A program made the position numbers and the translations under genes. The notes beneath the pieces are model-generated. The model was not told the DNA's origin, did no database searches, and saw nothing but the letters and a program-made list of their open reading frames with translations. A stretch of 59,665 nucleotides of DNA, filler included, from Jimgerdemannia flammicorona (lineage: Eukaryota): assembly GCA_003990765.1 (NCBI GenBank). It is 3 parts of 3 records of this genome, joined end to end, with 100 filler letters (N's around TTAATTAATTAA, not from the genome) between each part and the next. Parts side by side here need not be neighbours in the genome. Positions count along the whole stretch, not along the records: positions 1 to 19,823 come from RBNJ01001843.1; 2 more parts are not named here. One strand, written 5' to 3'. Positions 3,729 through 57,960 of this stretch are shown one piece after another. The first letter of the stretch is position 1; each line of letters opens with the position of its first letter.

Positions 3729-3758
3729 AATGAAATACAATTTGTTATCAGTTGATCT

Positions 3759-5784
3759 CTACTGCTCCATGCTCATCTCCTCCTATACCATGTCCAGATT
3801 ATGTTCCACCATCACCTCCTCCTCTTCAGCCCTCTGAGCCTCCAATCCAGCCAACAGCTCATTCATCTCTCTATCTGCCTTCTCCTCAAACTCCTCCCAG
3901 TACTTAATGCAAGCCTTCTACCAAAGCTGCAATCTATGACACTTGTTCCAACAGTACTCAGCCCTCTCCCCAGTGACAACCACCATCTCTGCCTCCCACT
4001 CCTTGTCCACCCTATACCCTTCCTCCTCCAGATATACTACGAGAATTTCCACCTTCAGTGCCATCATCACTCCATCCCCCTGCAAAATCCATGCCCAGTA
4101 CTCATCACACATCACTCGCAAGTCCACCTCCCCCAACTCTTCTGCTGCCAGGTTATTCATCATCCTGTACATCCAAAGTAGGTTCCCCACCTCCTTCCCT
4201 CCAGGGGTCACCAGTCTCCCTCTATCCAGTATTGTGGTATTGGCTCCAGCACTCGCAGCCTCATCCCACACCTCCGGGACATCCACCAGTTCCTCCTCCC
4301 CATCTGCCACCACACATCCCCTGTCCATTACCTCTGGAATACCGAATTTCACCCAATGGGTCCCCAGCATTATCACATCCTCCACCATCTTATTCCTAGA
4401 AGCCAGGCCTCACCTGATAAGAGGAGAAGGAGTGGGGGAATCCTCCCAGATCTCATCCCAAACCTCCAAGGTGCCATCAGCATATGGGTCAATAACCTTC
4501 ACCTCCTTCACCTTCCCTGTCTCCTCCTTGGCATTCCCACTTCTCTTGCCAGCCCAGATACTCACTTTGGCTCCTTCCACATCTATCATCTTGCTCACAT
4601 CCTCCTGTGGTCAGTTCCCCAGTTTAGCCAGCAGATCCTTCTGTCTCTTATGTCCCTGAGCCCTTTCCTACTGCATCTTGTTCACTTGAATCCTCTTTCC
4701 ATCCACTATCTCCAGATGCGTTGACTCCATGAAAGCCTTCTAAGCCTTTACTTGCCACTCCACAGTACTATCCAATTCTTCCAGCACTTCCAATAAATCC
4801 TCTTCCTCCTCTTCACTTCTTTTCACCCTCATCACCTTGCACAAGATTGCTCTCCAGACCATCACCAAAGGCCAGTCCCTTGCCTTCCCAGTAGCTTCTT
4901 TCCTAGCCAGCCGAATCCTCACATCCACATCCCCAGTTTTGAGCAAGGTCCCTTCCCAGACCCTGAATCCAATATCCACCACCTCTCCATACTCTACCAT
5001 GACATCCTCAACTCTCTTTCTCATCTCCATCACCATCACTGTGGGCACTCCTTTCACCAGCAGTTGGACCACCCTTGGATCCCATTTCAGACACCTTGTC
5101 ATCAGAACACACACCTCCCCAACCACCAATCCAACCTTCAAAGCCTCCTCTAGTAGCTCAGCCTCCTCAAAACTCACCTCCACACCCTCTAGTCCCTTCA
5201 AAAACTTCACTGACGTGGCTCCTACCACCTGCTTAGCAATAAGCCCCAGCACTATTTTCACCATTACTGCTAAGCCCCAGAAGCACAATGTAACTACAAA
5301 CACTGAGATCAATTTTTTGAGTAACGGGGCCACTGCTAGGCCCATCATGCCATCTGCCAAATCTCCTTGTCTTCCAAGCCTCAGCCGCTCAGCCTCATCA
5401 GCAGCTGTTATATCTGGATTTTTTTCCAGATTAGCAGTCTTGTTACCATCAGCAGTCCCACTCCCCCCAGCTGCTACTTCCCCAGCTCCACTACCCCCCT
5501 TCTCAAGGGCTACTCTCCCATGCACTGCCACCTTCTCAGTCTCCTTGCCCCTCCTCAGCCAGCCCTCCAGCCCTGACACCTGCTGCCTCCCCTTCACTGT
5601 CTCTATAAAGCTCGCTCTCCCAGACCCTTGTCTACCACCAATACCTCCACCTCTTCCATGTCCTCCCACCAGCAGCCCCCTCATGCCCCCCCCCCAGGCC
5701 TGGGCCCCTCCCCACCTGCTGCCATTCGAAAGTACTTGGGCTGCCCTACCCAGTATATACCTCAGATTGCCTGTTGGTCACCAT
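3759..5784 (-). pseudogene. LINE ORF1 (gag-like; probable RRM-like region), interrupted by stops
   Basis: Fragments 4740-5684, 4410-4598 and 3918-4388 are homologous to the better preserved ORF1 at 39845-41156. Lies directly upstream of ORF2. Confidence 0.85.
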
Positions 5785-5863
5785 ATTGTTAGTCTCTTTT
5801 CTCCAAAAACGATGTTGTAAGTACCTTCCAAAGGTTGTGTAACCTGAATGGTACTGGAGAAAG

Positions 5864-8829: not shown

Positions 8830-9293
8830 ATTGATCAAGATATTGGTCTATTACTTTCTATATGAGATTTTTAAAGTAATGTTGATTTTTAAAGAAATGA
8901 TATATTTTATCTAAGATAAGAAATTAATTATTGATATAGCTATTTTTGAAAATTAAAGATTAGTATTGATGAGGTTCTTTATAAATAAAGTTATTAGTTT
9001 TCTATATATGTAATTTAGAAATTTATAAAATTTAAATAATAATTAAACTTATAGTATATTTAACTCAAAAATAGCCAACTTATTTTTGAATCTGATTTAT
9101 TTTTGAAACTCAATTTAATATTCAACTTATAATCTAACTTAAAACTTAATTTAATCTTAAAATTATCTTATATATATTTTTTAAAAAGTATATATTAAGA
9201 TATTAATTATTCTAACTTAATATATAAATATATGATATCTATCAATATTATACTTATATTTATATCATCAATTATTATATTATATATATATAT

Positions 9294-10826
9294 TGTCATG
9301 TAGTGGTTGCTGAGTCCTTCAAATATATCAGATTCTCTTCAAGGTATATCTCTTAGACTAACTTAAGTTTGTTATAAGTAAGTTCTTATTAGAGTGCCTT
9401 CCTAAAGTCTTATAGTTCTCAAACTTCTTATCTTTAACTATCTTGTTATCTCTTAGATTGCTTGCAAGGAAGTGTGTATATTACACTAAGTAGACTGACT
9501 TTATTTCAGAAGAAATAAGAGGAGTATTTATACAAAATATAATTCAATGGTTACTAAGATATAAAGCTAAATATAAATTCCAATAACTAAAACTACTAAG
9601 TTCTAGGGTCAGTACTGATAGTTGTACAGGTTCAGGATGCTGGTATAATTCAGTATTATATCAGAATACCAGTGCTGGTATTATTTAGTGTTATATCAAA
9701 ATACTGATACAGGAACAATTCTGTGTCACCTCAGAATACTGGTGCTGGTATTATCCAGTGTAACAAGAGACTTAGAACAGAATGTTCAAGACCATGGGGG
9801 CTTTATCCTTGTCATCAGAGATCAGGATATCTTTAAAGGAGATAAAGTCTATAAATATTTCGTTAAGATTATGTAGGTTGCATGAGATGACATCATTGCT
9901 AATGACATTATCATATTCAGCAGCGACAGGAACAAGGAGATCTGGAGCTCTCTAGTCTATGAGATTCTCTTCCACAAAATAGGGGACAAATGTGGGGTCT
10001 TGGGGAGGTCTAACCTAGATGCTTAGGCCTTGGAATACTGAGATCAATCCTTGCAGGAATTGGTCTGGGTTGTCTTGGAGGATGGGGTACCAGAAGTCTT
10101 CTACTTCATCACTATTGAGGGTGATAGTAGACTGGGCTTCTGTAGCCACCCTGGCTTCTAGTGCATTGATATGGTGGGATGATAGGTCTCTGAAGTCTGA
10201 GACTCTGACATACTCCAAGTTAGAGATCGACTATGGCACATGCCTGAAGATCTGATGGATCTTCTTAGCTATTCTTGTCTCGCATATATCTATGGGAGTG
10301 GCATCTTGTAGCTCTTGAGAGCTGGCCTGTGGGAACTCCCAGCAGAGGAGGTTTTCTATTTTATACTCCTGCTATATTTAGAGGTATTCAGTGACAATGG
10401 TGATCCTTGTTTCCATTTCATAGTAGTAGAGGATATAATGATAAGAGTCACCAGTACTCAGGTTGATACTAGGAGTCCTTCTTGAGTAGGTCCTCATAGC
10501 TCTTCTGATGTCTTGGAATATATTTTCTTTGACTGAGGTGCCTTGGTAGTTCCTTGACCTTGAGGTTTGGCAGGCAGCAGGCATTTCATTTATAGTAAGT
10601 CTTTGAGCTATTTTGGAATTGGTAGGTCTTGTTGGTTGCTGCTACTGTAGTTCCTTGATCCTTCTTTTATATTCCTCAAGATACTCATACTGAGGTCACA
10701 ATGACTTACAGTTGGTCATCATTGCTTATCTAATATGCCATATGATCTTCTTGTGCTCCAATCTGGTGGCTTGTAAGGAAAGGCTGTCTCCTATACTGAT
10801 GTCATCATTCTGGGGTCACCATTATA
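9294..10826 (-). repeat. Family A 3' LTR
   Basis: Direct repeat of 16129-17628; polypurine tract (AGGAGGAAGA on the minus strand) abuts it. Confidence 0.9.
9772..10584 (-). pseudogene. LTR-encoded ~270-aa ORF of unknown function (family A)
   Basis: Fragments 10378-10584 and 10015-10218 are in one frame. Same ORF occurs at 16574-17386, 18840-19667 and 41386-42221, with stops often at different positions. Confidence 0.75.
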
Positions 10827-10829
10827 TCT

Positions 10830-12387
10830 TCCTCCTAAATAAGGATCTTCCTGAGCATCTTTATTCATTGGTCCAGTTCTGAAAAATTTGCTGATCCCAT
10901 AACCTCTGGCAAGGGGTCAAAAAGTGGTGTTTATGGACTGGTATCTTCTCTTTGTATTTTGGCATAATGGTGAAGGGTCACTCCCTTCATATAGAGTAAG
11001 GGCTTGATTCTGATCTTGACCAATCAGTTGATAGTTTGAACTCCTCTGACTTTGAAAGTCTCACAGATGAGTAGTTACCAGTGCCATATCCCTTAGAGAA
11101 TGGTCCAGACAAATAGCCTGCTGGTTATGGGACATACTGTTACAATTTGCAGACTAGAACCTCACAGGCAGTCATCATATTTTGCTTCTCTTGTATAGAT
11201 TCATAGTACTTCTTGAGTCTGTTCCTGTGTACCATGGTAGGTAGTATGGTCTCTGAGATTTTTCTAAGCCAGAAGGTAGTTCCTTTAATATCTTGCATGT
11301 AGAAGGGTCCTTCCCATTTGGGCTCCAGTTTTCATGACCATGAGACTCCTACTATATTTTGATACAGTAGAACCTTTTCTCCAATTTAGATGAGTTCTAG
11401 GGCCTTGTGATTCTTTTCTGCATTCTTCCTTATCAGTACTTGTAACTTGGTGATATAATCTTCAGCCTTCTTTCTAATTTGGTGTAGTCTCTGGATTTCT
11501 GCATCAACCCATCTCCAAGTTAGGTCTAGATTTGTAACTGAGATTCCATCAGAATCTTCTTCTCTGAAGAGCAGCTCTCTTGGGGTAAAGTGTGTGCTCT
11601 GTGACTATATGTCTCATAGAACAGAGAGGGCAGTTGGGAGATAGTTATTCCAATTCTTATATGTCTCTGAGATCTTTGCTAGGATGTTCTTGAGGGTCTT
11701 GTTGATTCTCTCTGTCTGTTCATTTCCTTGAGGGTGGTATGTGGTGGTCTTGATGTACTGGATCTTATATTTCTGATATATTATCTCATGGAATCTATTG
11801 ACAAATTCTATGCTATGGTCTGTTGTAATTTGCTTCAGTGTCTTATAGTGGCAGATAATTTCTCAGTAGAGGAAGTCAGCTATAGAGAGGGCATTGGCCT
11901 CTTGTAATACTCCTGCCTCTATCCATTTGGTAAAGAGGTCTATAATATCTATAATATAGTGGTTTCCTGATAGTGTTACTGATAGTGGCCCAATGATATC
12001 CATTGCAATATAGTGGAAGGGGATAGGCTCAATTCTTGATAATTCAAGTATCTGGTCTTACTGATCTTGTTTTTGTTTTTGGCACTTATCACACCCTTTG
12101 ACAAATTGGTGCAGATCTTCTTCCATCTTGGGCCACTATATAGTTCTTCTTACTTTGTCATATGTATTGATTCCTCCTAAGTATCCTTGCTCATATACTT
12201 CCTTCATTACTTGATACTTCTTGTGTTCAGGTATTACTAGCTTTCCTCCTTTTCTGAGTATAGTGTTGTCTAGTTCAAACTGTTTCCAAGTCCAGTTGAT
12301 GATAGTGATTGTCCAGAGTTCAAGATGGTTGAGCATCTTCCACTGCCCAAGATAGCTGATTAATCCATAGTATAGCTCCTTATTCAT
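10830..12387 (-). pseudogene. Integrase (family A)
   Basis: WPKMEEDLHQFVKGCDKCQ zinc-binding region, DIIGPL, TTYHPQGN..TERINK core, KLEPKWEGPF (GPY/F) motif. Confidence 0.88.
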
Positions 12388-13800
12388 GTTGAATAGTCTT
12401 GATGGGGGTATTTTGGGGTGTCCTTGAGAGTGCATCAGCATTGGTATTGGTCTTTTCTGAGCAGTACTTGACAGTACAGTCATACTCTTGCAGCCTGTAG
12501 ATCCATCTGGCATATATTCCTTAGGGTTCAGAGTGTGGAATAGCTAGGCAAGAGCAGAATGGTCTGTTGAATGGTGAAGTGTTTTCTGGCTAGGTAGTAG
12601 TGGAACTTGTCTACTGTCCAAACTACTGCTAAGCATTCAAGCTTGCATGACTTGTACTTCTGTTCTGCTCCATGGGTATCTTGGCTTGCATAGGAGATGA
12701 CATATTTATATCCATCTTTCTTCTGAGCTAGGACTGCTCCAAGTCCTATAGTACTCACATCTGTCTGCAGAATGAATTCTAGGTTCCAGTCTGGTCTTCT
12801 GAGGATAGGTGCTTGGGTCAATCTGGTCTTGAGTTCATTGAAGGTTTTTTGGTACTCTTTGGTCCATTTGAATTTAGTTTCCTTCTTCAGTAGCTCATAG
12901 ATAGGTGCTGCAATATTGGAATATTCTTTGATGAATCTTCTGTAGTAGCTGACTAGTCTAAGGAAGGCATGGACTTCTGTAGTTATTCTGGGTCTTGGGT
13001 AGGCTGCAATAGTCTCAATATTCATAGGGTCTGTATGGATTTTGGTCTGGTTGATGAGGTGTCCTAGATAGGCAATTTCTTGAGCTGCAAACTTACATTT
13101 CTTGGACTTGATGTAGAGGCCATGCTCCTTGAGCTTCTTGAGGGCTAGCTGTATATGATTAACATATTCCTGTACAGTGTTGTTGAAGATAATCACATTA
13201 TCAACATAAACAAAGAGCCATTTTCCAATCTCATTGCTGAAGACTCTGTTCATTATTCGCTGGAAACTTACTGGGGCATTGCACATTCCAAATGGTATTT
13301 GTAGGTAGATATAAGTGGTATCAGGTGTGATGAAGACTGATTTCTCACTGGCATCTTGAGTGAGACCAATCTGATGGAAGCCTGAGAACAGATCCAAGGT
13401 GGTGTAGTATTTGGCTTCACTTCCAAGAGTGGTAAGGATTTCTTGAATATTTGACAAGAGCTGCCTATCCTTCTTGGTGATGGCATTGAGCTTCCTGTAG
13501 TCAATGTAGAGTCTTGGTGTAAACTCTCCAGGCTTGCTTCCTTTCTTTGGGACAAGAACAATGGGTGAAGCCCAGGGGCTGATAGCTTACTTGATAATTC
13601 TGGCTTCTTCCATTTCCTTGAGTTCTGCTTGCAGCCACTCTCTGTAGGCGGGTGGTATGAGTCTGGCTTTCTGGTAGATGGGCTTAGTATCACCAGTATC
13701 AACTTTGTTGTAGTACTTGGGTTCTTGATTGTGGATATCCCTAAAGTCTATAGCAAATACTCCTTTGTTCTGGTGCAGAATCTTGAGAAGTTGTTCCTCC
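12380..13800 (-). pseudogene. Reverse transcriptase + RNase H (family A)
   Basis: LDLFSGFHQI, PFGMCNAP, YVDN (degenerate YVDD), LQTDVS..GLGAVL, LECLAVVW, NADALSR. Confidence 0.92.
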
Positions 13801-13898
13801 AGGGGAAAGTTTTCTCCAATGGTATATGTGTGCTTATTCTGGTCCTTGTCTTTCTTGTGCTCAAGTTCAGTAATCTTGGTAGCAACATAGACTCCTCT

Positions 13899-14315
13899 TC
13901 CAGTAGATCCGAAGCCTTGTTCTCCTCTCTTAGTCTTGATGAGTTCAATGGCTTCAATGATCTTGGGCTTCTTGACTTTGTGGATCAGCATCTGGTCAAT
14001 CCTGTCATGCTTCTTGACTTCAAATAGGGTGGTGGGGTTGTGATTCCTGACTATGAGGAAGATCTCACCAGTGTAATTAGGGTCAATTACTCCTCCTTTA
14101 ACTGAGATTTCACTTTTGGCTAGACTGCTCCTAGTCTTGATAATTCCAGCATAGTTCTCTGGTAACTTGACTCTAATTCCAGTGCCAAGTAGGGTGGTGG
14201 TCTGTGGTTTGAGAGTAGTATCTTGAATGCTGGCAAGGTCTATTTCTATGGCTCCTTCAGTCTTGTATTCTGGGATCTTGGCTTTGGGGTAAAACTTCTT
14301 GACCTTGAGGGTGAT
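13899..14315 (-). pseudogene. dUTPase domain within pol (family A)
   Basis: Motifs EIDL, TRSSLA, GGVIDPNYTGEI, DRIDQM, RGEQGFGSTG. Confidence 0.92.
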
Positions 14316-14639
14316 GTCTGATTCTTGTTTCTCCTCATTATTACTGTCAGCTTGAAGCTCTGGGGGCTAGTCATCTTCTTCAGCCTTCCTTTTTGCTTCA
14401 GCAGCTTCTTGCTCATGTTTCTGTTGGCAGATTTTTCTGACTTCACTGATACAGGACCAGCAGTCATTCAGGTGTTCAGAGCAGTACATCCTAGTACCAT
14501 GGGAACATCTTCCTTGAGGGACATAGCCATTGATGATCTTGTTGTACCACTGCTCATCTGTGAGCTTGGGTGTCTTATTCTTGTTCTTATTCACTAAGTA
14601 TATGAAGGCCTCTGTGTTCTCTTTATCTCCTTCCTCCAT

Positions 14640-15030
14640 GTCTGATAGAACTCCTTTGTGGACATTGATAGAGACTCATACCTTTCTTCCTCTATAGTTG
14701 ATCTATATCTTCTGGGCATTGAGGTCAATAATGGCCTTGGCCTTGTAAAGCCATTGGTTGCCAATGAGGATGTTATAGTTGGTAGCACTTGTAATAATCA
14801 CATCTACTGAGATGGTAGCTCCTCCTATCTTGATGGAGACTTCTCAGATTTTGCTAAGGGGGGTAGCTCATGTACCATCTGCTGTGATATAGACCATCTT
14901 GGTGGACTCTTCAATATCCCAGTCTAGGTGGTCAATTGCCTTCTTGCTCATAAGGCATCTTCCAGCACTAGTATTAATGATGGCATCAAAGATACAGTCT
15001 TTGATCTGACATGGAGTATAGGCTGATGTT
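14640..15030 (-). pseudogene. Retropepsin-like aspartic protease (family A)
   Basis: AIINTSA (degenerate IIDTGA), TADG, ILIGNQWL. Confidence 0.8.
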
Positions 15031-16073
15031 TTGTGCTGGTCTTCAGATTCTTTACCTGAGTTCTCAGATTCTTCCTGTGTATTGTAAGCTTCTACAATCT
15101 TATACTCTTGATTCTTGGTGGTAGTTGCAAGTCCTACTCTCAACTGCTGTCTGAAGGCAGGGACTTTGGCTAGTTGTCCAAAAGTAGCATTGACCTTCTG
15201 TTCCTTGAGATCTTTATAGATATCATACTGATGGATCTTGGTCTTACACAGCTTCTGTTCCTTCTTGCTTTCACTTTCTCCTGAGACTGGAGTAGTGTCT
15301 TCAATGATTTGGCAGGCAGCTTCATCTAACTCTATGTCTTGATCAATCTCCTCTGGTTGAGTCTTGCTTTGAATAGTAATAGCTGGGGTCTTCTTTGGTC
15401 TTTCAACTGTCTTGCTGTTGCTCTTCTTGTCATAGGGCTTGGACTGGATTCTGGTACCTTCAGTAGCAGGGTAGAATTCAAGCTCCTTGTAGTATTCTTC
15501 ATTATCAGTGTCACCAATCTCCTCGATGACTACTGCATTGGTTTGTTCTCTGATTCTGCTAGCATTACTTGATTGGACTTTGCATCTTATTTTGGTCATG
15601 CAACTCTTTGCATAGTGGCCTTCTTCTCCATATCTGAAGCATGTGATATTGTGTTCTTCTGTAGTGGCTACAAATCTCTGTACTGGTCTCCTGTTGGCAC
15701 TTCAGACTTCTCTAACAACATCACCAAGGTGTGTAGTCATCTTGGTGAACTACTTGGCAAGTTTTTCCACTGGGTCAGCTTTGACTGTCTTAGGGGTAGG
15801 TAGGGTTGGTTGTCTGTTTACAACTGTGGTGAATATGATACTAGTTGGCTTTGATGGCTCCATCTTGATGCCAGTTATTTTCTCCATTGAGTGTTCAGTA
15901 GAGTATCTGGCAGTCCAATATCTCTATGCAAAGACCACTTTCTGATCAAGGGTCAGTGCAGCTGGGGTAGACCAGATTACTATAGAATGTGAGGGGATGT
16001 ATTTCCATCTTATCTTGAATTCTTGCAGGGGTGACTCTTGTAGTCAGGGTAGTTATTATGGGGGTTGTTCATT
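15030..16073 (-). pseudogene. Gag remnant with CCHC zinc knuckle (family A; appears internally deleted)
   Basis: CFRYGEEGHYAKSC near 15600-15645; only ~0.5 kb separates the PBS from the knuckle. Confidence 0.65.
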
Positions 16074-16108
16074 TTTTAGCTTGAAAGTGAGGGATTCATC
16101 TTGAATCA

Positions 16109-16125
16109 CCAGCCAATGGGCACCA
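16109..16125 (-). promoter_or_regulatory. Primer-binding site, family A
   Basis: TGGTGCCCATTGGCTGG begins 3 nt after the LTR-terminal CA; cognate tRNA not identified. Confidence 0.7.
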
Positions 16126-16128
16126 AGT

Positions 16129-17628
16129 TGTCATATAGTGGTCACTGAGTCCTTCAAATATACCAGATTCTCTTCAAGGTATATCTCTTAGACTAACTCA
16201 AGTTTGTTATAAGCAAGTTCTTATTAGAGTGCCTTCCTAAGGTCTTATAGTCCTCAAACTTCTTATCTTTAACTATCTTGTTATCTCTTAGATTGCTTGC
16301 AAGAAAGTATATGTATTGTACTGGGTAGACTGACTTTATTTCAGAGGAAATAAGAGAGGTATTTATACAAAATATAATTCAATAGTTGCTAAGATATAAA
16401 GCTAAATATAAATTCCAATAACTAAAACTACTAAGTTCCAGGGTCAGTACTGATAGTTGTACAGGTTCAGGATACTGGTATAATTTAGTGTCACATCAGA
16501 ATACCAGTTCTGGTATTATTTAGTGTTATATCAAAATATCAGTGCTGGAACAATTCTATATTATCTCAAGGACTTAGAGCAGAATATTCAAGACCATAGG
16601 AGCTTCATCCTCATCATCAGAGGTTAGGATATCTTCAAAGGAGATGAGGTCTGTAAATATTTTGTCAAGATCATATAGGTCGCATGGGATGACATCATCA
16701 CTGATGATATCATCACGTTCGGTAGCAGCAGAAACAAGAAGATCTAGAGCTCTCCAGTCTATGAGATTCTCTTCTACAAAATAGGAGACAAATGTGGGGT
16801 CTTGGAGAGGTCTAACCTGGATGCTTGGGCCTTGGAATACTGAGATCAATCCTTGTAGGAATTGGTCTGGGTTGTCTTGGAGGATGGAGTGTTAGAAGTC
16901 TTCTACTTAATCACTATTGAGGGTGATAGTAGACTGGGCTTCTGTAGCCACCCTGGCTTCTAGTGCATTAATATGATGAGATAATAGATCTCTAAAGTCT
17001 GAGACTCTGACATACTCTAAGTTGGAGATCAACCATAGTACATACCTGAAGATCTGATAGATCTTCTTAGCTGTTCTTGTCTTATGTATATTCATGAGAG
17101 TGGCATCTTGTAGCTCTTGAGGGCTGGCCTGTGGAAACTCCTGGCAGAGGAGGCTTCCTATTTCATACTTCTGCCACATTTGGAGGCATTCAGTAGTAAT
17201 AGTGATCCTTGTTTTTATTTTATAGCTATAGAGGATATAATAATAAGGGTCACTAGTACCCAGGTTGACACTAGAAGTTCTTCTTGAGTGGGTCCTCATA
17301 GCTCTTCTGATGTCTTGGAACATCCTTTCTTTGACTGAGATACCTTGGTGATTTCTTGACCTTGAGGTTTGGTGGGCAGTAGGCATTTCATTTGTAGTAA
17401 GTCTTTGAGCTATTTTGGGATTGGTGGGTCTTGTTGGTTGCTACTACTGTAATTCCTTAATCCTTCTTTTATATTTCTCAAGATACTCATACTGGGGTCA
17501 CAATGACTCACAGTTGGTCATCATTGCTCATCTCATATATCATATGATCTTCTTGTGCTCTGATCTGGTGGCTTGCAAGAAAAGGCTGTCTCCTGTACTG
17601 ATGTCATTATTCTGGGGTCACTGTTATA
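16129..17628 (-). repeat. Family A 5' LTR (contains ORF 16574-17386)
   Basis: Direct repeat of 9294-10826; followed by the PBS. Confidence 0.9.
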
Positions 17629-18586: not shown

Positions 18587-19823
18587 TGTAATAGTGATCT
18601 CAGAATAATGATATCAGCATAGGAGATAGTCTTTCCTTATAAGCCACCAGATCAGAACACAGGAAGATTATATGACATAACTTATCTGGGCTACAAGATG
18701 AGCAATGATGACCAACTATAAGTTATTGTGACCATAAGACAGATATCTCAAGAAATATAAAAAAAGGATCAAGAAACTACAGTAGCAGCAATCTAAATAA
18801 AGCTCACAGAAATAGTTCTAAAGACTTACTACAAATAAAATATCTGCTGCTTACTAAACCTCAAGGTCTAGGAATCACCAAGGCTCCTCAGTCCAGGATA
18901 GAATATTCTAAGACATCAGAAGAGCCATGGAAATCTGTATAAGAAGGACTCCTAGCCTCAACCTGGGTACTGGTGACTCCTATCATTATATTCTCTACTA
19001 CTGTAAAATGGAAACAAGGATCACTATTACTACTGAATGCCTCTGGGTATGGCAGGAGTATGAAATAGGAAACCTTCTCTACTGGGAATTCCTTCAGACC
19101 AATTACCAAGAAATATAAGATGCCATCTCCATAGATATATGTAAAATAAAGATAGCTAAGAAGGTTCATCAAGTCTTTAGACATACACTATGGTCAATCC
19201 CCAACTTGGAGTACACTAGAATCTCAGACTTCAAGGAACTGTCAGCCTGCTATACTAATATACTAGAGGCCATAGTGGCCACAGAAACCCAGTCTACTAT
19301 CACCCTCAATAGTGATGAGGTAGAAAAGTTCTGGAATTCTATCCTTGAGGACAATTCTGATCAGTTCCTACAAGGATTGATCTCAGCATTTCAGAGCCCC
19401 AGCATCCAGATTAGACCTCTCCAAGACCCCACATTTGTTTCTTATTTTATAGAAGAGAATGTTATAGATTGGAAAGCCCCAGACCTCCTTGTTCTCTCTG
19501 CTGCCAAATGTGATGACATCATCAGTGATGACATCATCCTGTACAACATATGCAAAGTATACAAAATGTATGATATATGTGATGAGATAGACAAAATGTT
19601 CATAGATCTCATCTCCTTCAGTAGTGATGAGAATAAAGCCCCCATGGTTCTGAACTTTCTACTTTAAGTTCTTGGTAATACCAGATTCTACCAGCATTCT
19701 TTTCTTATATAACTATTATTCTTCTGGCATTCTGATCTTGTATAACTCAGAAATTCTTCTAGTATTCTTTTCCTATACTATCAAAATTCTACTGATATCC
19801 TGAACTTGTATAATTGTTTTTTT
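18587..19823 (+). mobile_element. Family A-related LTR (diverged), cut by the assembly gap; ORF remnant 18840-19667
   Basis: Starts TGTAATAGTGA; encodes the same LTR protein (18927-19118, 19206-19667). Confidence 0.85.
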
Positions 19824-19923
19824 NNNNNNNNNNNNNNNNNNNNNNNNNNNNNNNNNNNNNNNNNNNNTTAATTAATTAANNNNNNNNNNNNNNNNNNNNN
19901 NNNNNNNNNNNNNNNNNNNNNNN
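19824..19923. other. Artificial contig linker
   Basis: N-run / TTAATTAATTAA (stops in all six frames) / N-run, 100 bp. Confidence 0.97.
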
Positions 19924-21421: not shown

Positions 21422-22216
21422 TTAATTCCAGTTCAGAGGTTGGGCTTTATACCAACTTGTAGGAATTCACAGAAGGGTTTGTAGCAGGGTGAGGAAGCGT
21501 CTTGAAGCAGAATTGGATTGTAAACCACTGCTACCAAGTTGTAAGAGGGTTACTTTTTAGGGTAACTGTTACATAGTTCTGGAAGGATTTTCTGGAAGTT
21601 CTGGATATTCTGGAAGACTGTTTTCTTATGGTCAAGATCAATTTTGTATGGAGTACATCCTCTACGCTTATTGATATCAAGATTGGGTTGACGTCTCAAC
21701 CAAAGTCCTTTTCCAGACTAGTTCTGGATGTTCAGGATTTCTGTATTTCAGGAAGTTCAAGAAACTAAGACCAGCTTAGTTGAATTGGCATATTGCTGCA
21801 GATAATACCCAATTAGGAAATTTCGTGACGGAGTTAGGAGTAGGACCTAATAGGGAGCAGATTTACTTAAGAGTGGTTTGTGGGTTATGGAATAGGTTTA
21901 TTTGCTATTCATGATATTGCTATACTAGGAGTATTTGTGTGAAGGGGTATTGTGGGGAAGTGCTCAGGAGTTGTGTTCGAATTGTTCCAGTCTGAGATTC
22001 TGAGGTCTGGGGGAGGGGGTATTTATACTAGTGAGGGGCTATCTGGACTATGCTGAATATGGATGTAGCACTAAGTGCCTTGCTGAGTCGGAATGCAGTC
22101 ATATAGTACAAGTGTGATCTGACATATCAAGAGATCGTTTGACTGCTGAGTCAGTTCACAGTCACGTCATATAAGGCTAATCTATCTATACTATGACTGC
22201 TAGACTATTTATAGGT

Positions 22217-23314
22217 TTAGGCACTATCTGGGTAGTCCTCAATGACATCACTATTGATTGCATCATCTCTGATGAAGTAGTCGTCTAGGAATAATGGTTC
22301 GCGGATTACTTCTCCTTGTTGGCTGAGGTAGTAATATATTGGGACTTCATCTCTGTCCCACAGGATAGCATCATCTGTTTCGTATGCTGGATAAGATATT
22401 GGTGGGTGAAGGATGGGTGTACTGTCTTCGCTTTCATCGGATTCGCTATCTGTGTACCTTCTATAGGTTACAGCACTATGAGTTGTGGGGTTATAGTATG
22501 CTGGCAGCTGTGGTTCATGTTGCTCGTACTCGGGTGGTGGAGTGGTTGGTTCGATCTCGAGGGTTGTCTGAAGGTACAGGTTGTGTTCTCCAGTCTCTTC
22601 ATTATAATTGAAGTAATCGGGGGTGAACGCGGGTTGGTATTCATGCCAGTGGTCATTGTCCCAATAAGTCTCGTATGTGGTTATGAACTGTTGCAAGTTC
22701 ATCGGCAAGTTTGGCGGGGTGATCAGGGTTGGCAGAGATCCTTGGCTTGAGGTCATGTCAGCATCAGAGGGATCATTGTCTTCTGCTTCATCTTCGTCGA
22801 AGTGGATTATATTGTAGATATCCTTCATAGCGTATCCAACTTGAGGCATTTGTAGGATATGGTCATCAGGGTGCGGGAAGGTTCTGTCTGTGGTCTGGAC
22901 GTATTCGAGGTACTTGTGGTTGATTTCTTGTATCATGTCATCGATTTGGCTATAGGACAGAGTAGCAACCATTTCGCTGGTAGTAACTCGGAGGCGGGGA
23001 ATAAAGGTGTTGTACTCATAGAAGAGTTCTCGATGTTTGCAGGCGATGAGCTTCTGGTGTTGAGACATCTGGGTAATGTCTGTATCATGGTGGTGTTCGA
23101 CCATGTCTTCCAAGAGGCGGCCGATCTGGTAGTAGCTTGATATTTGTCCGATCCGGTGGGCCTCGTTAAGCATGTTCAGGGTGTTCCATCGAGCTTCCAC
23201 GAAGTAGAGAGGTGCCAGGCTATGGATATTCATAAGGGGCAGAGGGGGTGTGGCTCGGTTGACAATGGTATTCCAAATGTCAGCATGAATGCAGTTGTAG
23301 ATTTCAGTGGTCAT
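22217..23314 (-). CDS. Intact 365-aa protein of unknown function encoded within the family B LTR
   Basis: Uninterrupted ATG-initiated ORF on the element sense strand, entirely inside the LTR and upstream of the TATA-like box; acidic, Pro-rich C-terminal half. Confidence 0.8.
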   Translation of the reverse strand: MTTEIYNCIHADIWNTIVNRATPPLPLMNIHSLAPLYFVEARWNTLNMLNEAHRIGQISSYYQIGRLLEDMVEHHHDTDITQMSQHQKLIACKHRELFYEYNTFIPRLRVTTSEMVATLSYSQIDDMIQEINHKYLEYVQTTDRTFPHPDDHILQMPQVGYAMKDIYNIIHFDEDEAEDNDPSDADMTSSQGSLPTLITPPNLPMNLQQFITTYETYWDNDHWHEYQPAFTPDYFNYNEETGEHNLYLQTTLEIEPTTPPPEYEQHEPQLPAYYNPTTHSAVTYRRYTDSESDESEDSTPILHPPISYPAYETDDAILWDRDEVPIYYYLSQQGEVIREPLFLDDYFIRDDAINSDVIEDYPDSA

Positions 23315-23604
23315 GTTTGTGTGTTTGGAAGTTGTGGTTTGTTGTTTGTTTTGGTTCTCTGATTCGACGCATCTCAGTGCTCAGTATATATGCATTTGGT
23401 CCTGATTGGTAAGGTTCCGTTTGTGTAGATCTTGTGTTCCGTGACTTCATATTGACTCAGCTTTGTGCGCTGTGACTTCGGTTTGACTCAGCTTCGTAAT
23501 CAAGCAGGTGATTTCCAGATTTGTTCAGAGGTCGCGTGTGATTTCAGTGGCTTTGTTCAGAGGGTGATGTGCAATTTCGGTGGCTTGGAGGTTGTGTACT
23601 TACA

Positions 23605-29641: not shown

Positions 29642-29644
<3 letters not shown>

Positions 29645-39573: not shown

Positions 39574-39575
39574 AG

Positions 39576-41236: not shown

Positions 41237-42463
41237 TGTTATTAGTTGTGCTGCTGGCATTATTTAGTGTCACATCAAAATACCAGTGCTGGAATAATTT
41301 CGTATCACCTCAGAATGCCGGTGCTGGCATTATCCAGTGCTACATGAGAATACCGGTGCTGGCATTATCTAGTGTAACAAAGAACTTAGAGCAGAAAGTT
41401 CAGGACCATGAGAGCTTCATCCTCATCATCATCATCACTGAAGGAGATGAGATCTGCAAATTCGTTGCACAGGCCGTGCATCTCGGTACTTCGCATGCTT
41501 CAGGTATGTCATGCGGGATGACATTATTGCCGATGACGTCATCACGTTTGGCTGTAGCGGGAAAATCAGAAACAAGATCTGGAGCTCTCCAGTCTATAAG
41601 GTTCTCTTCCACAAAATAGGAAACAAATGTGGGGTCTTGGGGAGATCTAATCTAGATGCTTGGGCCTTGGAATACTGAGATCAATCCTTGCAGGAATTGA
41701 TCTGGGTTGTCCTGAAGGATAGGGTGCCAGAAGTCTTCTACTTCTTCGCTATTGAGGGTGATAGTAGACTGGGCTTCTGTAGCCACCCTGGCTTCTAGTG
41801 TATTGATACGGTGGGATGATAGGTCTCTGAAATCCGAGACTCTAATATACTCCAAGTTGGGGATCAACTATGGTGCATGCCTGAAGATCTGATGGATCTT
41901 CCTAGCTGTCCTTGTTTCGCATATATCCATGGGAGTGTCATCTTGTAGCTCTTGGGTACTGGCCTGTGGGAACTCCCGGTAGAGGAGGTTTCCTATTTTG
42001 TACTCCTACCATATTTGGAGGCATTCGGTAGCAATGGTGATCCTTGTTTCCATTTCATGGTGGTAGAGGATAAAGTGATAAGGGTCTGCAGTACCCAGGT
42101 TGATGCTAGGAGTCCTTCTTGAGCAGGTTCTCATGGCTCTTCTGATGTCTTGGAACATCCTTTTCTCAACTGAGATACCTTGGTAATTCCTTGACCTTGA
42201 GGTTTGGCAGGCAGCAGGCATTTTGTTTGTGGTAAGTCTTTGAGCTATTTTGGGATTGGTGGTTCTTGTTAGTTGCTGCTACTGTGGTTTCTTGATCCTT
42301 CTTTTATATTCTTCAGGATGCTCATACTGTGGTCACAATGACTCACAGTTGGTCATCATTGCTCATCTCATATGCCATATGATCTTCTTGTGCTCTGATC
42401 TGGTGGCTTATAAGGAAAGGCTGTCTCCTGTGCTGATGTCATCATTCTGGGGTCACTGTTACA
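41237..42463 (-). mobile_element. Family A LTR (partial), with LTR ORF remnant 41386-42221
   Basis: Starts TGTAACAGTGACCCC on the minus strand; homologous to 9294-10826. Confidence 0.88.
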
Positions 42464-48190: not shown

Positions 48191-51100
48191 AAGTCCTCAG
48201 GTTTTTTTTTCTTTTATTTTTGAAAAATATTAAATATTCCACAAGGCCAACCAACTTATCCATGAACCCCCAGGACCTACTGAATTTTAGTGGCCTGAGC
48301 TCTACTAAGACTTCAGACATATATATGTCCAGATTGTCTCAGTATTCAGCATACATCTCTTTGGGGCAATGAGGTCTACTCCATCTGAGAACATCCACTC
48401 AATGGGAGTGCTGGAGGCAGGAATTACCAGGTAGTCCCAAGCCATACTATACAGACTGGGGAAGTCCATTTGATATAGCTACATGCTCTAGTAGATAGAG
48501 TGATAGTTAGATTGGTAGATTAAATTGGCCCAATGCCTGCCTGATAACCCACCTTCCACTAGTTGAGCACCTCTGTGCCCTCCAGCAGGATCACATGGTT
48601 GCTGGTGAGATAAATGGTAAGTTTGTCTATTGACAGCAGCTCTTCTACTGACAGCTCCCTCTTTCTCTTTCTACTGAAGTAAATGTGAGACAGGAGGGAT
48701 CCCTCAGCATATTCATCTAGACTTCAGCTGGAATCTTGCAGCAGCACATAGTTTTTCCAGTATACTTCAATTATAGCCTGCTTGGTTCTCTTAATGAAGT
48801 ACTGCTCCCAGCCCTGATCTTTATAGTATTGTAGCTTTAAGCATAGGTCCAGCACTAGTTGGAGAAAAGAATGTGTGTTTTTGTAGGGGTTTCTCTATTT
48901 TGAAAGAGGCAATAGCCACATGCCAACATACCTATACTAATTGAGTATATAGTGATATCTGTTTTGGAGTAGTATTTTCTGAGCTTGCTTAAAGTAACCT
49001 CCACAGCATCTCTCTGATCTGGACTTAACTATAAATCACTGCAACCCTCCAGCCTGTCCTCAAGCTTGTCCTCTAGCCAGTCAATCAGAAGGTTATATAC
49101 TGGTATTGCAGAGCTTATTGTCAAGGTTGTTTGTTTGACTATATTCTTTATACAATTATCAAAACACTGGCAGTTATATGTGGTGAGGTATTGCATTATG
49201 CAGAGGTAGACAAAATGAGTATAGAGTCAGAGTAATTACTACTTACTTCCAAAACTCTGACAATATTCCTAAGTACATCCCACTTGCTTTCACCTAGAGC
49301 CTCACCCTGTATTTCCTTATTGGCAGCTACTGTTGAATCTATTGGCTTTTTTTGTTTTTTTTTTTTAAAAAAAAAAAAATCTTCTATCATCTGAAATAAG
49401 TTACTTCAGCCAACTAAAGAAAAAAGAATACATACTACAGCAAACTCCAGTACATGCTGGATAATTATAAATGTTAAGTTCTAATGTATACAGACATCTA
49501 ATATAAGCTCTTTCAGGGCTAAACTGATTGCCCTACACTGCAATAAATTTGTCTTATCATTGTGGGGACAATTGGACTGATACAACTAGTTTGCATAGCT
49601 TGGAAATTATACTCAGAGCCCCTCCTCTCTTGGATGTTTTGTCTATATACATAAGATAGTCCTGAACAGTGAGGTTCAGTACATGGGTCTGGCATTATAT
49701 ATGATAGCTTTCTGTACTGAAGGTACATTTTTTTGTTTAAGGCTGGCTACTAAAACTTGGAAAAATGTTGAGTTGTTTGTAGCATTGTCTGTTATAATGG
49801 TCAAAATCTGTACTTGAAATATTCAGTTGCCAAATATATACAAAAATAAATAACCAATAAAATCTGTTTTATTTTAGGACCTTTCTCAAAATGCTGACCT
49901 AATGGCAAGCCCCCCTTTTTTATCTTGGTTATGATCCCAAGCTCCCAGATACAACTAACAAAAGCATCTGCAATGTTGTCTCCAGAATGAGGGCCAGCAA
50001 GTTTGACAAAGTCAAGGGTGAGAGATTTAAGCTATCAATTGAGGTCAATCTAATGACTGATAATGCCCAGAAAAGAAATTGTATTGAGGGATATCTATGT
50101 GTCAATTGTAAATGAAATTTTGTCTGCTGAATTCTATTTATTAAATGTAAGGTTAAATTGGTGAGCTCTTTATAAAAATATATATATAATTCAGCTTGCA
50201 AAGGTCATAGTGCTGCCCTTATTTTATCTGAAATATCTGATAGAGATTGTCATACTCCTTCCTATAGGCCTTTAGGATATCTTTGTAAATAGTATCAGTA
50301 CTTGGTAAATATAAATAATACTTGAGGAGGTCAAAGATGCTATGCACTTGATCACTCTCAATGGTTGTGAATAGTTGGTCTGTGTACACAATCTAGCAAA
50401 TGAGCCAATTTTAAAATTCTGCCAAAGAGTATAGCTAAATATTTTTGATTAAATAGAGTTATTGGTACAGAAATGGTCAGGCAATTGGATAAACATATCC
50501 ACCACAGCTTGGATGTTTATTTTATTTGTCTCTGTGTTCTTTTTGATTTTGTCAGAGTACTTGTCTTGTAAGCACACAACCTCCAAGCCACTGAAATTGC
50601 ATGTCATCCTCAAAACCAATTTGGAAACCATATGCAAGACTACAAAACAAGTTACTGAAGAGATCATCTGGTTATACAAAATATGCCAGCAAACACAAGA
50701 ACCTACTGCCAAGATACAAGAATACCAGAAGAAGTACTACAACCATAGGACTGACTCTGAACCTCTATAACTAGTTTGGTGTACTATACTATTACAAAAG
50801 GAAACCGAAAGTACTCAACTCAAACTGAGACAAGAAGGACCCTATCTCATCCATCAAAGATTCATGAACTGCACTTATCAAACTCAAGATCAAGATACAC
50901 CATGACTATATAAGATCTCATTACTTAGCAGAAGCAAAACACATTTGAACAACTCTGTTCACTCTATCTGTGTCACCTCCATTGGAGAGTGACAGATGCT
51001 TCATCTGAACTCAAGAAAGCCAACATCATCAAAACCAATCTCAAGCCATCCATGTGACAGATATTACTACTAGAAATTGTCTCAGATTATAGAAAATATC

Positions 51101-52099
51101 ATTTCTGAGAGGTTCAAACCACCAGCTGCAACATTGGGAGCCCTCACCCTAGACAAGAATGGCCAGTCCTCGCAAATGTGCCAGCAGGCTAAAAAAAAAA
51201 GAGAACCAAGACCTGTTATCCTTATATAACCATCATCACCAAGAACAGTCATAATTTTGCAAGAGACAGAAGTGACAATACCTTTGAAACTAATAACATC
51301 AGAAGTCAGAAAACTGCTCAGACTTTACCAGTGATGATGTCATCAATAGTGATATCATCAAAGACTAACCAGACAGTATCTAAATCTATAAATAGTTTAG
51401 CAATTATAGTATAGTTAGATTAGTCTCGTACAACATGACTGTGAACTGACTCAGCAGTCAGATGATCTCTTGATATATCAGATCACACTTATACTACATG
51501 ACTGCATTCTGACTCAGCAAGGCACTTAGTGCTACATCTATATTTAGTATAGTTCAGATAGCCCCTCACTAGTATAAATACCCCCTCCCCCAGACCTCAG
51601 AATCTCAGACTTAAACAGACTTGAACAGACTTGAACAGACTACAATATCCCTTTACACAACTACTCCTAGTATAGCAATATCATGAATAGCAAATAAATC
51701 TATTTAATAACCCACAAACCACTCTTAAGTAAATCCGCTCCCTATTAGGTCCCACTCCTAACCTCATTATGAAATTTCCTAATTGGGTATTATCTGCAGT
51801 GATACACCAATTCAACTAAGCTGGCCTTAGTTTCTTGAACTTCCTGAAATACAGAAATTCCTGAATATCTAGAACTAGTCCGAAAAAGGACTTTGGTTGA
51901 GACATCAACCCAATCTTGAAATCAATAAGCATAGAGGACATACTCCATATGAAATTGATCTTGACCATAAGAAAACAGTCTTCCAGAATATCCAGAACTT
52001 TCAGAAAACCCTTCCAGAACTACATAACAGTTACTCTAAAAAGTAACCCTCTTACAACTTGGTAGCAGCAGTTTACAATTCAATTCCACTTCAAGATGC

Positions 52100-55070: not shown

Positions 55071-57960
55071 AGATGAAAAGGACCCACTCAGCTCTAGTGA
55101 CCCTAGACCAAAGATTACCCACATCAACAAGCTATAACTCAAGAAATTGGCCAAGAAATGCTCTCTTTTTACCATCTCCATCCACCTATCCAAAGAAGAA
55201 CCCAAGAACTCTGAAGAAGACTTTTCCAAAGTTAACAGCCATGTCAGACCACTACTTCAGAAATTCTGAGACATATTTTCAAAGAAGCTTCTGAAAGGCC
55301 TATCTCCTAAACGAGCAGTAGACCATGCCATCAAGACCAATCTCCAGAATACTACTGATTTAGTTCAGGAATATGATTTCTTGAACAACTGAAATCTAAA
55401 TACTCCGACACCTATCAGTACATACTATATATTACCCTCTTGAACATTATAATTATCTTGAACAAAATCAAGAACTCAGCAAGTCAAGACAAAAGAATAC
55501 TAATCCTCTGAAAAAACAGCAAAACTGAAAGCAAGCCTATTCTCCCCATACCACTAGTGGGAAACAAGGCATAGATATTTAAGAAGATTCCTTAGAGGAA
55601 ATTCTCCAGCAGTGAATGACATCAGAATCACTTCCAGTATATAGTATTGAACATATGACCCTTTAATATATGAACCCAACATGTTAGGCAACTGTACTAT
55701 GAACATGCCACTTTCTGAGAAAAATGGACTTCACTGGACTTTTGACCTCCCAAATGGTGTAACAACACTAGAACAAAATTAGAAGGCCCCAATGAGGATG
55801 TCGAAAGCTAAGAAGGAGAGAGTTGTAAGTGCACAACCTCCAAGCCACTGAAATCACATGTCATCCTTAGAACCAATTTGGAAACCACATGTGAGACTAT
55901 AAAATAAGTTACTGAAGAGATCATCTGGTTATACAAAATACATCAGCAAATATGAGAATCTACTGCTAAGATACAAGAATACTAGAAGAAGTACTACAAC
56001 CATAGGACTGACTCTGAACCTCTATAACTAGTTTAGTATACTATACTATTATAAAAGGAAACTGAAAGTACCCAACTCAAACTGAGACAAGAAGGACCCT
56101 ATCTCATCCATCAAAGGTTCATGAACTGCACTTATCAAACTCAAGACCAAGATACACTATGACTATACAAGACCTCATTACTTAGCAGAAGCAAAATGTA
56201 TTTGAATAACTCTGTTCACTCTATCTGTATCACCTCCATTGGAGAGTGATGGACACTTCATCTGAACTCAAGAAAGCCAACATCATTGAAACCAATCTCA
56301 AGCCATCCATGTGACAGATATTACTACTAGAAATTGTCTCGGATTATAGAAAATATTATTTCTGAGAGGTTCAAACCCCCAGCTGTGATATTGAGAGCCC
56401 TTGCCCTAGGCAAGAATGGCCAGTTCTCGCAAATGTGCCAGCAGGCCAAAAAAAAAAGAGAACCAAGACCTGTTATTCTTGTACAATCACTATTACTAAG
56501 AACAGTCATAATTTTGCAAGAGATAGAAGTGATGACACCTTTGAAACTAATGATATCAGAAGTTAGAAAACTGCTCAGACTTTGCCAGTGATGATGTCAT
56601 CAATAGTGATATCATCAAAGACTAACCAGACAGTATCTAAATCTATAAATAGTTTAGTAATTATAGTATAGTTAGATTAGTCTTTTATAATATAACTGTA
56701 AACTGACTCAGCAGTCAGACAATCTCTTGACATATCAGATCATACTTGTACTATGTGACTGCATTCTGACTCAGCAAGGCACTTAGTGCTACATCCATAT
56801 TTAGTATAGTCCAGATAGCCCCTCACTAGTATAAATATCCCCTCCCCCAGACCTCAGAATCTCAGACTTGAACAGACTTGAATACATAAGAACATTCTTG
56901 AACACTTCCTCACAATATCCCTTCACACAACTACTCCTAGTATAGCAATATCATGAATAGCAAATAAACCTATTTAATAACCCACAAACCACTCTTAAGT
57001 AAATCTACTCCCCATTAGGTCTCACTCCTAACCCCATCACGAAATTTTCTAATTGGGTATTATCTGTAGCAATACGTTGATTCAACTAAGCTGGCCTTAG
57101 TTTCTTGAACTTCTTGAAATATGGAAACTCCTGAACATCCAGAACTAGTCCAAAAAAGGACTTTGATTGAGATGTCAACCCAATCTTGAAATCAATAAGT
57201 GTAGAGGACATACTCCATATGAAATTGATCTTGATCATAAGAAAACAGTCTTTCAGAATATCCAGAACTTCCAGAAAACCCTTCCAGAACTATGTAATGA
57301 TTACTCTAAAAAGTAATCTTCTTATATGTCTTTTATGTATCAATATATGTTCAAAGTTATACTACTAAGTATTTTGAACTTCTGACTAGTACAGTTTATG
57401 GAGTAGATGAAATAGTATTATGTGTATATCAAACAAAAGTATTAGTTATATTAATAGGTGCATTTTAATTTTTTATCTGTAATAATTACAAACAATATCA
57501 TCTTCTATCTTAGTACAATATTGCCAGATTTTGGAGTGAGGATTGTGTAAAAGATATGGAACTATCAGAAATTTTTAACTTGAAGTATCATCAGTACTAT
57601 GAACTATTGAAGACTGATCTGTCAACATGTATATTTGTATGTTTGCATATATATGTATATATATATTATATATAGATACATCCAGCATATGAGTTATGTG
57701 GAGAATTTGAATTGAAGGATTCAGTTGAAGGATTTGGATGAGGATTTGAATTAGAGGATTCAAATTGGAGAATTCAAATTAGAGGATTCAAATTAGAGGA
57801 TTCAGATTAAGTGGTTCAGATTGAGTGATTCAGATTGAGTGATTCAGATTGAGTAATTCAGATTGAGTAATTCAGATTGAGTAATTCAGATTAAATGGTT
57901 CAGATAGAGTAGTTCAGATGGGGTAATTCAGATAAGTAATTCAGATGAGATGATTTACAG

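What the first reader, a model, noticed from the sequence alone, without database searches (positions are those of the whole stretch)
9772..10584. A second LTR family also encodes a U3 protein, apparently homologous to the family B one
Seen: all four family A LTRs (9772-10584, 16574-17386, 18840-19667, 41386-42221) keep a ~270-codon sense ORF upstream of the TATA-like box. By-eye alignment with the family B protein: A QEYEIGNLL...RIAKKIHQIFRHVPWSIPNLEYVRVSDFRDLSSHHINAL vs B YYQIGRLL...LIACKHRELFYEYNTFIPRLRVTTSEMVATLSYSQIDDM. Near the C-terminus: A RDDIISDDVI vs B RDDAINSDVI. The two families otherwise differ in LTR sequence, PBS and pol layout. Inference: an unrecognised LTR-borne protein family shared or exchanged between retrotransposon lineages.
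Basis: partly seen in the sequence, partly recalled or inferred. Interest (0 to 1): 0.78.

Follow-up and report, generated by a model that had tools for sequence, protein, structure and literature searches.

The report
Shared accessory gene inside retrotransposon LTRs
Several unrelated jumping-gene families in a fungal genome carry the same undescribed extra protein gene, inside the terminal repeat in some families and just before it in others, and it has been swapped between families; the copies at this spot are dead.

Summary
The gene is real; the four family A copies here are dead. Each LTR keeps a 270-278-codon sense frame in U3, but all four have internal stops. Past selection is clear: dN/dS is 0.20 against sister family A', and the variable tail stays in frame in 27 of 27 copies.

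A and B are homologous, but only through a ~135-aa N-terminal helical domain, and only intermediate families show it. A alone versus B is not significant; a six-family profile versus B gives HHalign 91.7%, E=8e-7.

The same domain is an internal 3' ORF, outside the LTR, in families C and D. A's RT groups with D but its ORF with C, which indicates module exchange. There is no Pfam or PDB sequence match. A confident AlphaFold model of a D-type member is helical, with only weak ParB/SopB-like helix-turn-helix similarity (Z 3.8). Best guess: a nucleic-acid-binding regulator with an acidic tail (~40%); expression is untested. This scan reported the U3 gene family before on other pieces of this genome.

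The parts
9294..10826 (-). Family A 3' LTR (1533 bp) of a full-length Ty3/gypsy element
   Evidence: 1500 columns aligned with the 5' LTR show 159 transitions and 6 transversions
9772..10584 (-). U3 accessory gene, 270 codons, dead (5 internal stops)
10135..10527 (-). N-terminal helical domain (about residues 20-150) shared with families A', B, C, D, E and metagenome F
   Evidence: boundaries approximate
9886..9912 (.). Decayed tandem TGACGTCA-type palindromes that encode the DD(V/I)..DD(V/I) peptide
9500..9534 (-). TATA-like box and AATAAA about 20 nt apart (inferred U3/R boundary)
   Evidence: similar module seen by eye in A', C and D LTRs
10827..10836 (-). Polypurine tract
10837..11215 (-). 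Spacer between integrase end and PPT; no conserved open frame
   Evidence: 4-12 stops in each sense frame in 34 of 34 hits
11216..16116 (-). Internal region gag-PR-dUTPase-RT-RH-IN, broken; dUTPase frame 13587-14366, RT/RH frame 12528-13586
16117..16125 (-). Primer-binding site TGGTGCCCA, same start as in family D
16129..17628 (-). Family A 5' LTR
16574..17386 (-). U3 gene copy, 2 internal stops
18587..19823 (+). Family A LTR running to the contig end; gene 18840-19667, first codon ATA, 3 stops
41250..42463 (-). Truncated family A LTR (3' end approximate); gene 41386-42221 with 3 stops and a late frameshift
21542..23604 (-). Family B LTR (2063 bp), followed by PBS TGGTAGCAG (21528-21536) and a gag-like ORF
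22217..23314 (-). Family B U3 gene, intact, 365 aa; residues 1-140 homologous to the A domain
50567..52054 (+). B' LTR: B ends, but U3 gene replaced by a piece of an A'/C-type 3' internal region; right junction at the TGACGTCA-type motif
55824..57324 (+). Second B' LTR, same build

Best explanation
The U3 frame is the accessory third gene of a group of fungal Ty3/gypsy retrotransposons. SHOWN: it coded for a protein under purifying selection while the elements replicated, and inserted copies then decay, almost wholly by transitions. SHOWN: its N-terminal ~135-aa helical domain is shared by six repeat families here (A, A', B, C, D, E) and a metagenome type F. It lies inside the LTR in A, A' and B, and between pol and the PPT in C and D. 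SHOWN with moderate support: the 3' module moved between lineages, because A's RT is sister to D's while its ORF is close to C's, and B' has had its U3 cassette replaced. INFERRED: the gene enters or leaves the LTR when the plus-strand priming site shifts, since that site defines where U3 starts. It would be read from the 3'-LTR copy, by a subgenomic RNA in A and B or by re-initiation after pol in D, where the ATG overlaps the end of pol. INFERRED, about 40%: the protein is a soluble nuclear regulator. A helix-turn-helix-like unit binds element DNA or RNA, and the acidic, Pro-rich tail recruits host factors to keep the element transcribed (transactivator or anti-silencing factor). The confidence given is for gene, homology and exchange together.
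For: dN/dS A vs A' 0.20 (bootstrap 0.10-0.29), transversions 0-fold/4-fold 0.32. Within A 0.41, versus 0.33 for one RT pair of A elements; within B 0.15, C 0.28, D 0.22. ORF frame 0.34 vs 0.82 and 0.85 in shifted frames. Tail has 14 distinct lengths (150-234 nt), all multiples of 3, in 27 of 27 copies; downstream non-coding lengths 1 of 7. Non-B profile vs B: 32.1 bits, 0 of 2000 shuffles and 0 of 2000 window shuffles reach it; HHalign 91.7%, E=7.8e-7. Complete D element L164 has 478-bp LTRs and an internal ORF; C element in L171 has 796-bp LTRs and an internal ORF. RT tree rejects A+C (p-AU 1.8e-11); ORF tree rejects A+D (p-AU 0.031). Domain identity is A-C 38%, A-D 17%, A-B 16%. No hydrophobic segment (max KD19 0.19-0.97) and tails of pI ~4.1. 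AF2 model of a D-type member: pLDDT 85.7, helices 81-88 and 92-105 around a 3-residue turn. Weak fold hits: SopB-DNA (Z 3.8, rmsd 4.9, 90 aligned), VirB core (Z 3.4), Noc (Z 2.9) and a DUF3102 protein (Foldseek prob 0.66, E 1.2).
Against: A alone vs B is at chance level: BLASTP E=1.0; HMM 3.2 bits, reached by 21 of 2000 shuffles; B profile vs A -1.3 bits. A2 vs A3 HHalign is only 12%, E=0.0024. Profile significance is for a single chosen target, not a database. No fold hit reaches Z 5, and the top rows are unrelated helical proteins. The A-type model itself was poor (pLDDT 43), so A and B folds were not compared directly. The B domain is not basic (pI 5.8). Within-A transversion ratio by a second mapping is 0.76 (bootstrap 0.16-1.49). 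In-frame tail lengths may partly reflect duplication of 12-15-nt motif units. D has no tail and B' propagates without the gene, so it is dispensable in cis. The ORF-tree test is marginal and involves long branches.
Confidence: 0.8

Rival explanations
1. Same gene and homology, but the protein acts after transcription, for example in RNA export, particle assembly or copy-number control, rather than on DNA or chromatin.
For: Third ORFs of retroelements have varied roles (PMC7264820, PMC5408684). D's ATG overlaps the end of pol, suggesting coupled synthesis with Pol. The domain is near neutral in A', B, D and F. Fold hits are weak.
Against: All three ParB-family DNA-binding hits fall on the same model region, from residue 61. 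A basic A-[KR]-[KR]-x-H helix is kept in most families.
Confidence: 0.35
2. A and B each carry a real U3 gene, but the two are unrelated; the match is helical-pattern coincidence.
For: 16% identity; direct comparisons not significant; no DNA similarity between A and B LTRs beyond 15-26-bp matches.
Against: The score rises steadily as independent families are added (3.2, 9.6, 13.8, 14.3, 23.6, 32.1 bits) in one register covering ~125 aa from the N-terminus. Reversed B scores 0.2 bits. A profile search also returned a B-type metagenome protein, though B was in that query.
Confidence: 0.08
3. The frame is a non-coding by-product: an LTR sequence poor in stop codons whose apparent constraint comes from transition-biased decay.
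For: All four window copies are broken; 1 of 27 unbiased copies is stop-free over residues 20-236; singleton transitions show no codon-position bias (21/24/21).
Against: Transversion-only ratios of 0.2-0.3 between families, in-frame length variation, and intact metagenome members.
Confidence: 0.02
4. The DDIISDDVI / DDAINSDVI motif is a conserved peptide motif rather than a DNA element.
For: It lies near the C-terminus of A, A' and B proteins, and dual use cannot be excluded.
Against: The D-V/D-I variation follows the two decay products of TGACGTCA: 5 intact, 15 TGACATCA and 10 TGATGTCA sites in the 17 of 28 rows where the anchor was found. The motif varies from one to three units. It also occurs outside any ORF: at the A LTR start, in the C LTR and in B'.
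Confidence: 0.15

Closest known systems
Additional ORFs (aORF/ORF3) of LTR retrotransposons (review PMC7264820; bdelloid ORF3s PMC5408684; Retrosat2 ORF0 PMC3485330)
   Same: Family-wide extra gene in sense, 3' of pol, under selection, no assignable function; sharing of ORF3 types between distant retroelements is reported in bdelloids.
   Different: Those papers, as far as I read them, place aORFs in the internal region. Here the gene is wholly inside the LTR in A, A' and B and internal in C and D. No transmembrane segment and no esterase, exonuclease or other Pfam domain.
MMTV sag (U3 ORF of a betaretrovirus LTR) - recalled, no call
   Same: A protein gene of about 300 codons within U3, so duplicated at both ends; closely spaced TATA and poly(A) signals.
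   Different: Sag is a membrane glycoprotein of a vertebrate retrovirus; this protein has no hydrophobic segment. No sequence relation was seen in Pfam or PDB scans.
Retroviral 3' regulators: HIV nef overlapping U3, foamy virus Tas, deltaretrovirus Tax acting through CRE-like LTR sites - recalled; Tax seen only in search listings
   Same: 3' accessory gene plus CRE-like LTR motifs; a possible functional analogy.
   Different: No homology shown; transactivation is untested here.
ParB/SopB/VirB/Noc helix-turn-helix core and DUF3102
   Same: Similar helix order over model residues 61-153.
   Different: Z at most 3.8, rmsd about 5 A, no Pfam or PDB sequence hit, no CTPase domain; a lead only.

Membership tests
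Ty3/gypsy LTR retrotransposon (carrier A) | Direct LTRs with TG..CA ends, PBS, PPT | tested here: met
Ty3/gypsy LTR retrotransposon (carrier A) | pol order RT-RH-IN | tested here: met
   (dUTPase before RT; integrase after RH, recognised by tblastn to a relative and by eye)
Sense aORF of LTR retrotransposons | Extra ORF kept in most copies and under purifying selection | tested here: met
Sense aORF of LTR retrotransposons | Located between pol and the 3' LTR | tested here: not met
   Not met for A, A', B (inside the LTR); met for homologues in C and D
env / env-like ORF | Signal peptide and transmembrane segment | tested here: not met
   max Kyte-Doolittle 19-mer 0.19-0.97 in 6 of 6 proteins
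MMTV sag-type U3 gene | ORF wholly within U3 | tested here: met
   ORF lies between LTR start and TATA/AATAAA module; transcription start not mapped
MMTV sag-type U3 gene | Sequence homology, membrane anchor | tested here: not met
ParB-type HTH / DUF3102 | Significant fold or profile match | tested here: inconclusive
   Z 2.9-3.8; Foldseek E 1.2; no Pfam hit
ParB-type HTH / DUF3102 | DNA binding | not testable with these tools
   needs an experiment
HECT E3 ligase (ESM Atlas lead) | PF00632 match | tested here: not met
   Atlas score 0.90, 149 of 256 features; 0 of 26 members hit PF00632 at E<=10

The most novel reading that the evidence does not exclude
Fungal Ty3/gypsy elements of this lineage have a retrovirus-like regulatory gene: a ParB-like helix-turn-helix protein with an acidic tail that binds its own LTR and counters host methylation or drives transcription. 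It travels as a swappable 3' cassette, moves in and out of U3 by shifts of the polypurine tract, and in A and B overlaps the LTR's own bZIP-type enhancer sites, so each solo LTR carries the gene.
Probability: 0.25. Interest if true: 0.85.

Novelty: new variant of a known kind. Interest (0 to 1): 0.62.

Why it matters
LTRs are treated as non-coding, so annotation pipelines mask such genes. Here thousands of candidate loci per family (first-look counts of 7308 for A and 5997 for B) carry one. The same domain in both internal and U3 positions gives a natural series for how a gene becomes LTR-borne, a layout I recall only from complex retroviruses. If it is a self-regulator or silencing antagonist, it could help explain how these elements expanded in a genome that shows heavy CpG loss, and it offers a direct test of what retrotransposon extra ORFs do.

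Tried and rejected
Pfam: no significant family for window pieces or for 12 and 26 family members. PHROGs: best E 0.008 in 2 of 26 members, unnamed, treated as noise. PDB sequence profile: best E 0.18 and 1.7. Foldseek PDB and BFVD: nothing at E<=0.001. VIA-align: none at Z>=5; this does not show a new fold. ESM Atlas: HECT lead for A rejected; F-box or giant-virus lead for B at 0.90 with few shared features not pursued. AF2 on the shallow A alignment failed. RNA: no RNA holder listed, so no reads were laid. Phage tblastn and viral contigs: no relative. Metagenome scan: 3 loci of 40 stretches, two real (A'-type L194, C-type L195) and one 15-residue match (L196) not followed. A second ORF in A's post-integrase spacer was not found. 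RT linkage for A' and E could not be made from the 20 stretches fetched. Literature: eight searches listed no report of a U3-encoded gene in fungal retrotransposons. Most subscription journals, Repbase and Dfam were not searchable, and no supplements were read.

Full report
Setting. The window is three contigs joined by N spacers; 1-19823 is G000:C1843. The host is a fungus: 88 matches to the Zn2Cys6 family PF00172, none in 14 control genomes. CpG is scarce in most 3-kb blocks. A family A element lies on the minus strand: 5' LTR 17628-16129, PBS 16125-16117, gag-PR-dUTPase-RT-RH-IN, PPT 10836-10827, 3' LTR 10826-9294. Its LTRs differ by 159 transitions and 6 transversions over 1500 columns.

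Observation. The four regions translate to clearly homologous 270-278-codon frames, but none is open: 5, 2, 3 and 3 internal stops, one lost ATG, one late frameshift. To avoid selecting for intact ORFs I sampled copies with the non-coding 3' part of the LTR. 26 of 30 loci held a full LTR; with the window's 3' LTR that gives 27 copies. Stops inside it are scattered, and 1 of 27 copies is stop-free over residues 20-236. Stop-free natural copies exist elsewhere in the genome and in metagenomes.

Selection. Pairwise dN/dS is 0.34 in the ORF frame and 0.82 and 0.85 in shifted frames. Singleton transitions are even across codon positions (21/24/21), as expected for neutral decay after insertion. A divergent homologue led to a second family, A', with the gene again in its LTR. 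Between 23 of 30 A loci and 11 of 13 A' loci dN/dS is 0.20 (bootstrap 0.10-0.29). The transversion rate at 0-fold over 4-fold sites, which ignores methylation-type changes, is 0.32. Within A dN/dS is 0.41, close to 0.33 for one pair of A-type RTs. Against this, the within-A transversion ratio in that mapping is 0.76 (0.16-1.49). The variable tail takes 14 lengths from 150 to 234 nt, all multiples of three, in 27 of 27 copies; duplication of 12-15-nt units may explain part of this.

Homology with B. The B gene (23314-22217) is intact, 365 aa, inside a 2063-bp LTR. Direct comparison fails (BLASTP E=1.0). A HMMER search of 1.84 billion representatives gave 6 proteins, all unnamed. Using two of them on the own genome revealed families C, D and E. 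As families are added, the profile score on B rises from 3.2 to 32.1 bits; 0 of 4000 shuffles reach the last value, and HHalign gives 91.7%, E=7.8e-7. The reverse test (B profile on A) is negative, so the link rests on intermediates. The shared part is about 135 residues. Identities are A-A' 56%, A-C 38%, A-E 27%, A-D 17%, A-B 16%.

The C-terminal match. DD(V/I)..DD(V/I) is encoded by tandem GATGACGTCATC-type palindromes. In the 17 of 28 rows where my anchor was found there are 5 intact TGACGTCA, 15 TGACATCA and 10 TGATGTCA sites, the two products of CpG decay; L108 keeps two perfect sites. The same 8-mer occurs outside any ORF: near the A LTR start, in the C LTR after the stop, and in B' LTRs that lack the gene. 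It is one of only three short DNA matches between A and B LTRs. That TGACGTCA is a bZIP (CRE) site is recalled knowledge; binding was not tested.

Position and exchange. In the complete D element L164 (LTRs 437-914 and 6695-7172, 95.6%), the 153-aa homologue lies between integrase and LTR, and in L146 its ATG overlaps the end of pol. In the C element of L171 (796-bp LTRs, 5-bp target duplication) the gene ends just before the PPT. A metagenome C-type contig shows the same stop-PPT-TGT arrangement (L195). D shares A's PBS start, pol layout and 63-66% RT identity; C has B's PBS start and 37-40% RT identity to A. The RT tree of 8 rows joins A with D (94/95) and C with a B-type RT fragment (100/100), and rejects A+C (p-AU 1.8e-11). 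The domain tree of 18 rows places A near A', C and E and rejects A+D at p-AU 0.031; C+B is not rejected (0.31). The B-type RT comes from L181, whose internal region is 88% identical to B' and whose gag is 84% identical to B's. B' LTRs keep B's first 53 bp and last 739 bp but hold a piece of A'/C-type 3' internal DNA in place of the gene, with the junction at the palindrome. Exchange of the 3' module is therefore well supported. Whether internal or U3 position came first is unresolved.

Structure and function. An AF2 model of a D-type protein from 26 sequences is confident (pLDDT 85.7, pTM 0.77) and all-helical, with a short helix, a 3-residue turn and a helix bearing a basic A-[KR]-[KR]-x-H motif. 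Fold searches give no firm match. The recurring weak hits are ParB-family DNA-binding cores: SopB Z 3.8 (rmsd 4.9, 90 aligned), VirB Z 3.4, Noc Z 2.9, and a DUF3102 protein at Foldseek probability 0.66; unrelated helical proteins score as high. No member has a membrane segment, and the A, A', B and C tails have pI 4.1-4.3. I therefore favour a nucleic-acid-binding regulator with an acidic effector tail (~40%), over a post-transcriptional or particle role (~35%). By standard LTR logic (inference), U3 of the 5' LTR lies upstream of the start site, so the 3' copy is the one transcribed. No expression data were available.

Literature. PMC7264820 (parts 1-2 of 3 read, covering the main text) places aORFs in the internal region and reports nuclear localisation for some. 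PMC5408684 (passages) reports ORF3 types shared between distant retroelements. PMC3485330 (passages) describes ORF0 upstream of gag-pol. PMC3248453 (passages) showed no such gene in the passages returned. MMTV sag, nef and Tas are recalled. Eight searches listed no report of a U3 gene in fungal retrotransposons; coverage is incomplete.

Earlier scan notes. A look-up by place returned 8 of 391 fitting notes, all on other pieces of this genome, describing the U3 gene, its cross-family homology and an internal homologue. I saw them after my tests, and they are not independent support. Look-ups by sequence and by ParB/HTH words returned nothing.

Verdict. A real, undescribed accessory protein family of fungal Ty3/gypsy elements, LTR-borne in A, A' and B. 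A-B homology is supported for the N-terminal domain only; function is inferred. New variant of a known kind; interest 0.62.

Noticed in passing
window 19824-19923 and 39745-39844: N spacers join three separate contigs; features on either side are not neighbours.
   Followed up: yes
window 50567-57324: B' element with chimeric LTRs whose U3 holds an integrase-end/3' internal piece of A'/C type; RT appears cut short before the 3' LTR (by eye).
   Followed up: partly
window 7655-8024, 25648-26017, 39206-39572: About 370-bp element with a 270-bp inverted repeat, three copies at 87-93%, inserted in longer repeats; MITE-like.
   Followed up: no
window 1-8830, 23605-29640, 34650-40840: Long repeats with extreme GC skew (about 0.5); 26020-29602 abuts a poly(A) run at ~29598-29642. 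They look like decayed LINEs; no Pfam hit on the pieces scanned.
   Followed up: no
window 29641-33865 and 46460-50570: Two copies of a ~4-kb repeat with internal tandem units and a decayed frame that by eye resembles a hAT transposase; Pfam gave no hit on the piece scanned.
   Followed up: no
window 9530-9770 and other A LTRs: Direct repeats between the ORF stop and the TATA box vary by 35 or 70 nt among copies.
   Followed up: no
L146:1430-1455; L164:6190-6200: Family D third ORF starts a few bases before the pol stop, suggesting termination-reinitiation.
   Followed up: partly
L171:4485-8399: A 3.9-kb family C element with no RT or integrase match but with the accessory gene, nested in a family A gag-pol: a non-autonomous derivative kept the gene.
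   Followed up: partly
L175:332-943: A further divergent family member, 27-31% identical to A, A' and C.
   Followed up: no
window 10585-10605, L194:50-70, L195:355-378: The ~20 nt before the ATG are alike in A, A' and a C-type contig although the gene is inside the LTR in the first two and internal in the third; possible shared expression signal.
   Followed up: no
window 57958-58975: Two ~500-bp direct copies, also partly at 39573-39744.
   Followed up: no
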